Both the position numbers and the translations under genes were made by a program. Of a DNA stretch of 64,000 bases, positions 238-1,004 are shown piece after piece. The DNA is from Schmidtea polychroa (lineage: Eukaryota), in the NCBI GenBank assembly GCA_044892525.1, contig CM097886.1, positions 29,326,001 through 29,390,000 of the forward strand, given 5' to 3'. Each line of letters starts with the position of its first letter. Positions within the stretch are counted from its first letter, which is position 1. Under the pieces are notes generated by a model, which searched no databases, was not told the origin of the DNA, and worked only from the letters and a program-made list of their open reading frames with translations.

Positions 238-1004
238 TTATCATTTAATTATAAGATAACGCCAATCAAACATTCTTTTCACGATATATTTATATATAAA
301 AAATTTTTTTATTTTATAAAAACAATAATTATTTTTATAAATAATTTTACTTAAATTAAGATATTATTTTTTTAAAATTTTAACATTTAAAATTTAATTT
401 AATAATTTAAAAAATTTTTATTAATTATTTAATTTAATACAACAATCAATACATACAATATTAAAAAACCTATTTAAAAACTTATTTATTTATGTTTTTA
501 AATAAGTTTTTAAATAGGTTTTTTTAAATTGTATGTATAGATTGTTGTATTAAATTAAATAATTAATAAAATCTTTTAAATTATTAAATTAAATTTTTAA
601 TAAATAGTTAAACATACATGGCAATGATTTAATTATAAGATAACGCCAATCAAACATTCTTTTCACGATTAATTTCGACAGTTTTCCTGTCATCATCAGG
701 TGGGATATAATAACTCATTAAATTAAGGATTTTAAACAAATTTAATTATATATAAAATAATTTTTTTCATTTTATAAAAAAATATATTATTTTTTTAAAA
801 TTTTAACATTTAAAATTTAATTTAATAATTTTAAAAAATTTTTTATTAATTATTTAATTTAACACAACAATCTATACATACAATACACAAAAACTTATTT
901 AAAAACACTCAACACACAAGTATTTACTGCATTCTGCACATTAATTTTCGGATTCAATGATTTTATCAACAACGCCTCACAAATCACACGTTCCCAATAA
1001 TTAT
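238..1004 (-). mobile_element. Inverted copies of the Penelope-like element 3' end / pseudo-LTR (601-1004 and 238-492 on minus; 493-600 on plus)
   Basis: 901-1004 is the reverse complement of 2729-2830; 601-750 is the reverse complement of the 2990-3350 terminal repeats. 360-490 and 495-600 form a local palindrome of the post-ORF tail. Junction with the plus-strand RT at ~1004. Confidence 0.9.
664..702 (-). ncRNA. Type I minimal hammerhead ribozyme, family 1 (intact core)
   Basis: Minus strand reads CAC-CTGATGA-T-GACAG/GAAAA/CTGTC-GAAA-TTAATC^GTG: stem I CAC/GTG, 5-bp stem II, palindromic ATTAAT stem III, AUC cleavage triplet. Confidence 0.85.

What the first reader, a model, noticed from the sequence alone, without database searches (positions are those of the whole stretch)
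664..702. PLE hammerhead with an extra U between A9 and G10.1 and AUC cleavage
Seen: all five family-1 motifs have CUGAUGA followed by one unpaired U before stem II, a 3-bp stem I, and a palindromic stem III (ATTAAT or ATATAT). Known: PLE pseudo-LTRs carry minimal type I HHRs that cleave as dimers; an extra nucleotide at this position is described in a few viroid/satellite HHRs. Inference: a fixed core-insertion variant in a retroelement family, which standard HHR descriptors could miss.
Basis: partly seen in the sequence, partly recalled or inferred. Interest (0 to 1): 0.7.

Follow-up and report, generated by a model that had tools for sequence, protein, structure and literature searches.

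The report
Standard Penelope retroelement minimal hammerhead ribozyme
This is a real self-cutting RNA motif at the end of a broken Penelope-like jumping gene, but its 'extra' letter is the published norm for these elements; the one side-note is that here the extra U may also be part of the gene's start codon.

Summary
The motif at 664-702 (minus strand) is a genuine minimal type I hammerhead in the pseudo-LTR of a 5'-truncated, dead Penelope-like element (PLE). It lies in the inverted copy at the element's 5' end. All five copies carry the U between A9 and G10.1 and a palindromic stem III. Only 699 is fully intact; the other four have a core change, a stem mismatch or AUA. The 'variant' is not new. 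Cervera and de la Pena 2014 give the metazoan PLE consensus as 3-bp stem I, CUGANGA plus one extra nucleotide, and palindromic stem III. By my hand count 54 of their 56 motifs have the extra base, 12 have U and 9 cleave at AUC. Their descriptor already allows the insertion. Rfam does miss it. Related PLEs carry the same extra U with compensatory stems. One addition: A9-U-G10.1 reads AUG, and three close protein relatives begin in exactly that register, so the U may double as the ORF start, as the ORF start in Anolis Poseidon suggests; in more distant relatives it does not. Cleavage was not tested. The scan has noted PLE hammerheads before in other genomes. Low interest.

The parts
664..702 (-). 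Minimal type I hammerhead, the only fully intact copy: stem I 702-700/666-664, core 699-693, extra U 692, stem II 691-687/681-677, GAA 676-674, palindromic stem III 673-668, C17 667
691..696 (-). Two in-frame ATGs inside the ribozyme core (A6-U7-G8 and A9-extra U-G10.1); candidate start of the PLE ORF
   Evidence: inferred
655..657 (-). Third in-frame ATG, 9 nt downstream of the predicted cut
602..1012 (-). Inverted, 5'-truncated copy (end of endonuclease, 3' UTR, pseudo-LTR with tail) abutting the 5' end of the main copy
   Evidence: 97% identical to 2719-3107 over 389 nt; end at 602
1001..1084 (+). First surviving piece of the PLE ORF (RT thumb region, YRKPTDTGLY)
   Evidence: same motif in homologues
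1085..2010 (+). 926-bp TG...CA insertion with a 4-bp target duplication that interrupts the ORF (probably a solo LTR; not tested)
2015..2836 (+). Rest of the PLE ORF: thumb, linker with a 45-bp triple repeat, GIY-YIG endonuclease; premature stop at 2714-2716
   Evidence: homologues bear RVT_1 and PF26215
2837..3099 (+). 3' pseudo-LTR 1, without tail; hammerhead at 3029-3067 with A6 changed to U
3100..3348 (+). Partial tandem pseudo-LTR 2 with about 30-nt tail; hammerhead at 3248-3286 with one stem I mismatch and the AUAUAU palindrome
240..488 (-). Further pseudo-LTR copy with the 5' half of the hammerhead deleted
28271..29070 (+). Second 5'-truncated copy of the family (endonuclease and pseudo-LTR); hammerhead at 28970-29008 with one stem II mismatch
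   Evidence: 91% identical to 2370-3107; weak GIY-YIG Pfam match, E 5e-4, below cut-off
29114..29152 (+). Diverged sister hammerhead: 15 of 15 core positions kept, stem II re-paired, AUA site; upstream flank 9 of 30 identical
27867..28108 (+). Endonuclease end of a sister PLE sub-family (63% amino-acid identity over 76 columns)

Best explanation
It is the standard minimal type I hammerhead of a metazoan endonuclease-plus Penelope-like element. In the intact parent element the pseudo-LTR is transcribed in tandem. Stem III is too short to close in one copy, so two copies pair through the 6-nt palindrome; each core is then completed by the partner's U16.1-C17 and stem I strand, and cuts 3' of AUC (between 667 and 666 here). 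The cut is probably slow and helped by the element's protein. The extra U is the usual tolerated bulge between A9 and G10.1 and was inherited from the clade. Shown here: the anatomy, the pseudo-LTR position, and conservation of core and pairing across diverged relatives. Inferred from published PLE ribozymes: dimer formation, cleavage and protein help. This genomic copy sits in the inverted arm of a dead element and most likely has no present function.
For: Position about 190 nt 3' of a GIY-YIG ORF, in tandem and inverted pseudo-LTRs with an optional tail of about 30 nt, the PLE layout described in PMC8557442 (passages). The protein relatives are RT plus PF26215 proteins. Match to the published consensus and to D. 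virilis Penelope stem III and AUC. Core kept while flanks drift: 29117 keeps 15 of 15 core positions but 9 of 30 upstream and 6 of 13 inside stem II and loop. L001, a full-ORF relative with 57% identity in the endonuclease, has the same 9-nt 5' core including the U, with different but paired stems I and II. 9 of 16 more distant PLE loci have a hammerhead just 3' of the ORF, all 9 with the extra U; 8 of the 9 come from one assembly. The stem III swap UA to AU keeps the palindrome. Closing stem III in a monomer costs 5 kcal/mol, while the homodimer forms it with 6 bp.
Against: No cleavage or expression data. The hammerhead dimer (-13.4 kcal/mol) is less stable than an inactive dimer (-20.4), and the monomer prefers a fold in which the extra U pairs with G12; these energies ignore core tertiary contacts. 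The only tandem pair in the window (3032/3251) has non-matching palindromes and a core change, so it cannot form an intact dimer. Published PLE minimal hammerheads cleave poorly in vitro. For Anolis Poseidon, cleavage was dispensable for insertion in vitro and no RNA reads ended at the site.
Confidence: 0.8

Rival explanations
1. Dual coding (an addition to the best explanation, not an alternative): in this sub-clade the extra base is held as U because A9-U-G10.1 (or the adjacent A6-U7-G8) is the initiator AUG of the RT-endonuclease ORF, whose first codons run through stem II, GAAA and stem III. Self-cleavage would remove the start, leaving an in-frame AUG 9 nt after the cut.
For: The frame from these ATGs is the only one of three without a stop up to the element end (32 codons). 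Of 7 close relatives with N-termini, 3 begin in the same register, M then 5 residues then KY (P0011, P0019, P0129). P0129, whose cluster representative P0008 is sister to the window's clade with moderate support (91/82), back-translates to a stem II of up to 6 Watson-Crick pairs plus the 6-nt palindrome. At stem II score >=3.5: 2 of these 7, 1 of the other 101 starts, and 9 of 1258 internal methionines pass. [quoted passage not shown]
Against: No full-length copy of this family was seen, so the ORF's 5' end is not observed. Peptide similarity is weak (scores 30-31; 6 and 8 of 500 shuffles reach them, uncorrected). Protein starts are gene-caller predictions and their DNA was not obtained. P0015 and P0016 read through the ribozyme in another frame, and P0013 and P0014 show no trace of it. 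In 12 of 13 extra-U motifs of distant relatives this frame stops within 17 codons. 42 of 54 published extra bases are not U (hand count). So it cannot explain the extra base in general.
Confidence: 0.45
2. One reading: a novel, family-specific core-insertion variant unlike known retroelement hammerheads.
For: Rfam has no match. An insertion-free descriptor misses all five copies. AUC was once called essentially absent from natural hammerheads (PMC1636495 passages).
Against: The extra base is the published PLE consensus: 54 of 56 motifs, 12 with U, 9 with AUC (hand count of Fig. S3). It is built into the published descriptor.
Confidence: 0.03
3. The motif is a catalytically silent structural element (protein-binding or RT-positioning signal) or a passenger that no longer needs to cleave.
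For: Naiad PLEs thrive without canonical hammerheads, and the authors raise that hammerheads may merely parasitise PLEs. Cleavage mutants of Anolis Poseidon still insert in vitro. 4 of 5 copies here carry a defect.
Against: The catalytic positions themselves (C3-A9, G12-A14, U16.1, H17) are what is conserved across diverged relatives. Defects are expected in dead copies. The Anolis ribozyme does cleave, with C3G/G8C rescue.
Confidence: 0.15

Closest known systems
Minimal hammerheads (min-HHR) of metazoan PLE pseudo-LTRs (Cervera and de la Pena 2014, PMC4209133)
   Same: Type I, 3-bp stem I, CUGANGA plus one extra base, G10.1-C11.1, stem II of 5-6 bp, palindromic stem III, U-rich 5' and AU-rich 3' flanks, located in pseudo-LTRs, with opposite-strand copies near the 5' end.
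   Different: Has the 2-nt longer stem III of the 'variant' subgroup, not the loop-less form. I did not find this family's own sequence among the 56 listed.
Drosophila virilis Penelope hammerhead
   Same: AUAUAU stem III, AUC site and an extra base before stem II (the GAAA column is separated in the PDF text, so the row was read from its layout).
   Different: Extra base is C, stem I has 2 bp, stem II has a bulge, and an intron ends at stem I.
Poseidon of Anolis carolinensis (PAc) hammerhead (PMC11167929)
   Same: ORF start at the beginning of stem II with the cut 26 nt downstream (27 here); tail between two element ends.
   Different: Tested in vitro (cleaves only with protein). I could not see its sequence (figure and .gbk not readable), so that its start codon is A9-U-G10.1 is my inference.
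CChMVd (+) viroid hammerhead with extra A10 (de la Pena and Flores 2001, seen only through review PMC3705267)
   Same: One extra base between A9 and G10.1; A10 to U raised the trans-cleavage rate 3-4 fold.
   Different: A viroid ribozyme with long helices (6, 5 and 7 bp in Table 1 of PMC1636495), with no need for a dimer partner by my inference.

Membership tests
Metazoan PLE minimal hammerhead | Core CUGANGA ... GAAA ... NUH in type I topology | tested here: met
   (4 of 5 copies keep the core)
Metazoan PLE minimal hammerhead | One extra nucleotide between A9 and G10.1; G10.1-C11.1 pair | tested here: met
   5 of 5 copies; published consensus
Metazoan PLE minimal hammerhead | Short stem I (2-5 bp) and palindromic, unstable stem III | tested here: met
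   3 bp; AUUAAU or AUAUAU
Metazoan PLE minimal hammerhead | Located in the pseudo-LTR 3' of an RT/GIY-YIG ORF | tested here: met
Metazoan PLE minimal hammerhead | Self-cleavage as a dimer or with protein help | not testable with these tools
   Folding energies only; no reads were laid
Endonuclease-plus PLE (C-terminal GIY-YIG) | RT followed by C-terminal GIY-YIG in one ORF; tandem and inverted pseudo-LTRs; 30-40 nt tail | tested here: met
   Thumb and endonuclease in the window; whole RT-endonuclease ORF in relatives L001 and P0002; ends at 3099 versus 3348, 602 and 29070
Penelope/Poseidon clade | Phylogenetic placement with named references; no Zn-finger linker | tested here: inconclusive
   No named PLE references in my tree; the linker here contains a cysteine-bearing tandem repeat; not resolved
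Rfam hammerhead families | Score above the gathering threshold | tested here: not met
   No family-1 match at E<=5
Non-LTR retrozyme | Non-coding tandem repeats with a canonical type I hammerhead in each unit | tested here: not met
   The motif is attached to PLE ORF remnants and is minimal

The most novel reading that the evidence does not exclude
In this PLE sub-clade the hammerhead's extra U is the U of the initiator AUG, so ribozyme and N-terminus are co-encoded and self-cleavage acts as a translational switch: it removes the start codon(s) and either silences the RNA (making it template) or hands initiation to an in-frame AUG 9 nt after the new 5'-OH end. The start/ribozyme overlap is in print for one element (PMC11167929). 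The link to the extra U and a switch role I did not find in my searches.
Probability: 0.2. Interest if true: 0.5.

Novelty: new member of a known kind. Interest (0 to 1): 0.17.

Why it matters
As flagged it matters little: it adds one more PLE family to a 2014 consensus and confirms that Rfam models miss these motifs. The role of PLE hammerheads is still open (processing, circularisation, translation, or parasitism). If the start-codon overlap holds, this family would offer a clean test of whether cleavage separates messenger from template.

Tried and rejected
No whole genome is held, so no genome-wide copy census. Sequencing runs: no RNA holder listed; no reads were laid, so cleavage ends and expression stay open. 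Rfam gave nothing for family 1. The three CTGATGA hits at 2244, 2289 and 2334 are a 45-bp coding repeat, not ribozymes; 43121 and 61452 have no hammerhead context. A pattern scan of viral contigs gave 28 loci, 0 of which passed my hammerhead descriptor; a protein scan of viral contigs found no relative. Of 8 metagenome loci only L001 is a true relative; the other 7 are short matches of 17-33 residues. 7 of 16 genome-contig loci showed no hammerhead 3' of the match; several end or break too early. The profile search of 1.84 billion proteins added no new close relative with a complete N-terminus. The idea that the extra U is always a start codon was rejected. Lunse et al. 2017 is not held and is known to me only through review PMC6765202. 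The readable PAc supplements had no relevant text. Look-ups of earlier findings by place or by specific words were empty.

Full report
Observation. The reverse complement of 664-702 forms a type I hammerhead with a 3-bp stem I, CUGAUGA, one extra U (692), a 5-bp stem II closed by G10.1-C11.1, GAA, the palindrome AUUAAU and C17 (667). A descriptor allowing 0 or 1 inserted base finds 5 motifs in the window against a mean of 0.005 (maximum 1) in 200 resampled windows. Five related copies exist, with C3 at 699(-), 3032, 3251, 28973 and 29117. All five have the extra U and a palindromic stem III, but only 699 is intact. 3032 has A6 changed to U, 3251 lacks one stem I pair, 28973 has a stem II mismatch, and 29117 is a diverged sister with AUA. 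A sixth copy at 240-291(-) has lost the 5' half.

Context. The window is AT-rich eukaryotic DNA full of transposon remnants. The motif belongs to a 5'-truncated Penelope-like element. ORF remnants run from 1001 to 2836 (RT thumb to GIY-YIG), split by a 926-bp insertion with a 4-bp target duplication and broken by a stop at 2714. Two head-to-tail pseudo-LTRs follow (2837-3099 and 3100-3348). An inverted copy (602-1012, 97% identical) abuts the 5' end and carries the flagged motif. Three copies end about 30 nt further out than the internal one, matching the optional tail and the tandem and inverted layout described for PLEs (PMC8557442, passages). The six closest proteins are 52-61% identical; all six carry PF26215 and three also RVT_1.

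Conservation beyond the window. L001, a PLE with a near-complete ORF and 57% identity in the endonuclease, has a hammerhead just after its stop with the same nine 5' core bases including the U; its stems I and II differ but still pair, and the upstream flank is 9 of 30 identical. Among 16 more distant PLE loci, 9 have a hammerhead just 3' of the ORF, all 9 with the extra U; 8 of these 9 come from one assembly, so they are not independent. All 16 motifs found in those loci have an extra base (13 U, 3 A), although the descriptor also allowed none. Inside the window, 29117 keeps 15 of 15 core positions but 6 of 13 inside stem II and its loop.

What is known. I read parts 1-2 of 4 of PMC4209133 and all of its supplementary PDF as text. 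[quoted passage not shown] Fig. S3 gives a consensus of a 3-nt stem I, CUGANGAH, G...C, GAAAN, palindrome, NUH. By my hand count of its 56 rows, 54 have the extra base, 12 have U, 9 have AUC and about 23 have a 3-bp stem I. D. virilis Penelope has the same AUAUAU stem III and AUC. The descriptor in Fig. S7 allows 'a possible extra N10'; my rendering of it misses this motif only because stem III is 2 nt longer, a subgroup the paper also describes. So every flagged trait is in print. Other papers: PMC11167929 (passages and second half of the main text; figures and .gbk not seen), PMC1636495, PMC3705267, PMC6765202, PMC6155905 and PMC13725137 (passages), the 2026 retrozyme preprint (part 1 of 5). 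Lunse et al. 2017 was not held.

Mechanism. Closing stem III in a monomer costs about 5 kcal/mol, and the preferred monomer fold pairs the extra U with G12 (probability about 0.7) and buries the core. Two copies can instead form a 6-bp stem III through the palindrome. That hammerhead dimer scores -13.4 kcal/mol against -20.4 for an inactive dimer, so activity should be low unless tertiary contacts or protein help. This fits published behaviour: no cleavage as a monomer and weak cleavage as a multimer, and protein-assisted cleavage for Anolis Poseidon. An extra U is not harmful in a viroid hammerhead, and AUC is catalytically favourable but slower during transcription. The tandem pair in this window has mismatched palindromes and a core change, so it is not a working dimer. 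Cleavage itself is inferred, not shown; no RNA holder was listed and no reads were laid.

A side result. A9, the extra U and G10.1 read AUG. That frame is the only one open to the element's end (32 codons) and holds another ATG 9 nt after the cut. Three of seven close relatives with N-termini start in this exact register (P0011, P0019, P0129). P0129 back-translates to a stem II of up to 6 Watson-Crick pairs plus the 6-nt palindrome. At my threshold 2 of the 7 pass, against 1 of 101 other starts and 9 of 1258 internal methionines. Anolis Poseidon has its ORF start at the start of stem II, 26 nt before the cut. Against: peptide similarity is weak; two close relatives read the ribozyme in another frame and two show no trace; 12 of 13 distant extra-U motifs stop early in this frame; and no full-length copy of this family was seen. 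I give about 0.45 that the ORF starts there in this family and 0.2 that cleavage works as a translational switch. Searches for hammerhead + Penelope + start codon and hammerhead + pLTR + AUG surfaced the Anolis paper as the only one I found stating the overlap; I checked this in three of the six papers listed.

Verdict. A real ribozyme motif, correctly assigned to a PLE, but the 'variant' is the published rule. New member of a known kind; interest 0.17. The scan already holds 237 notes with the words hammerhead and Penelope from at least 26 genomes; these are unchecked notes and not support.

Noticed in passing
39833-39875(+), 60258-60300(+), 59846-59888(-): A second hammerhead family without the extra base: 5-6 bp stem I, 4-bp stem II, ACUAGU palindrome, GUC site; weak Rfam HH9 match (26.1 bits, below cut-off 52). 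Two copies lie head to head at 59.8-60.4 kb, one in a partial tandem of about 218 bp. Retrozyme-like or a non-autonomous PLE derivative; no ORF was linked.
   Followed up: partly
1085-2010: 926-bp TG...CA insertion with a 4-bp target duplication inside the PLE ORF; probably a solo LTR.
   Followed up: partly
2227-2346: A 45-bp unit repeated about three times in frame in the RT-endonuclease linker; source of three CTGATGA hits that are not ribozymes.
   Followed up: yes
3029-3067 versus 3248-3286: The two tandem pseudo-LTRs carry different palindromes; the first resembles the 699 copy and the second the 28973 and 291 copies, suggesting a template switch between sub-families.
   Followed up: partly
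15089-15319(+): Degenerate fragment of small-subunit rRNA (Rfam 59 bits), isolated from any rDNA unit.
   Followed up: no
6969-9169 region (ORF 7422-8708, minus): MULE transposase remnant between inverted repeats of about 200 bp (7188-7388 and 8969-9169).
   Followed up: no
55498-57278(-), 61174-63006(-), 12697-13050(+), 45371-47702(-): hAT/Spin-type and DDE_3 transposase remnants; the two long ORFs at 45.4-47.7 kb have no Pfam match at E<=0.01.
   Followed up: no
L037-L052: Animal-type PLEs with pseudo-LTR hammerheads sit in contigs filed as bacterial genomes (11 of 16 in one assembly), probably eukaryotic contamination.
   Followed up: no
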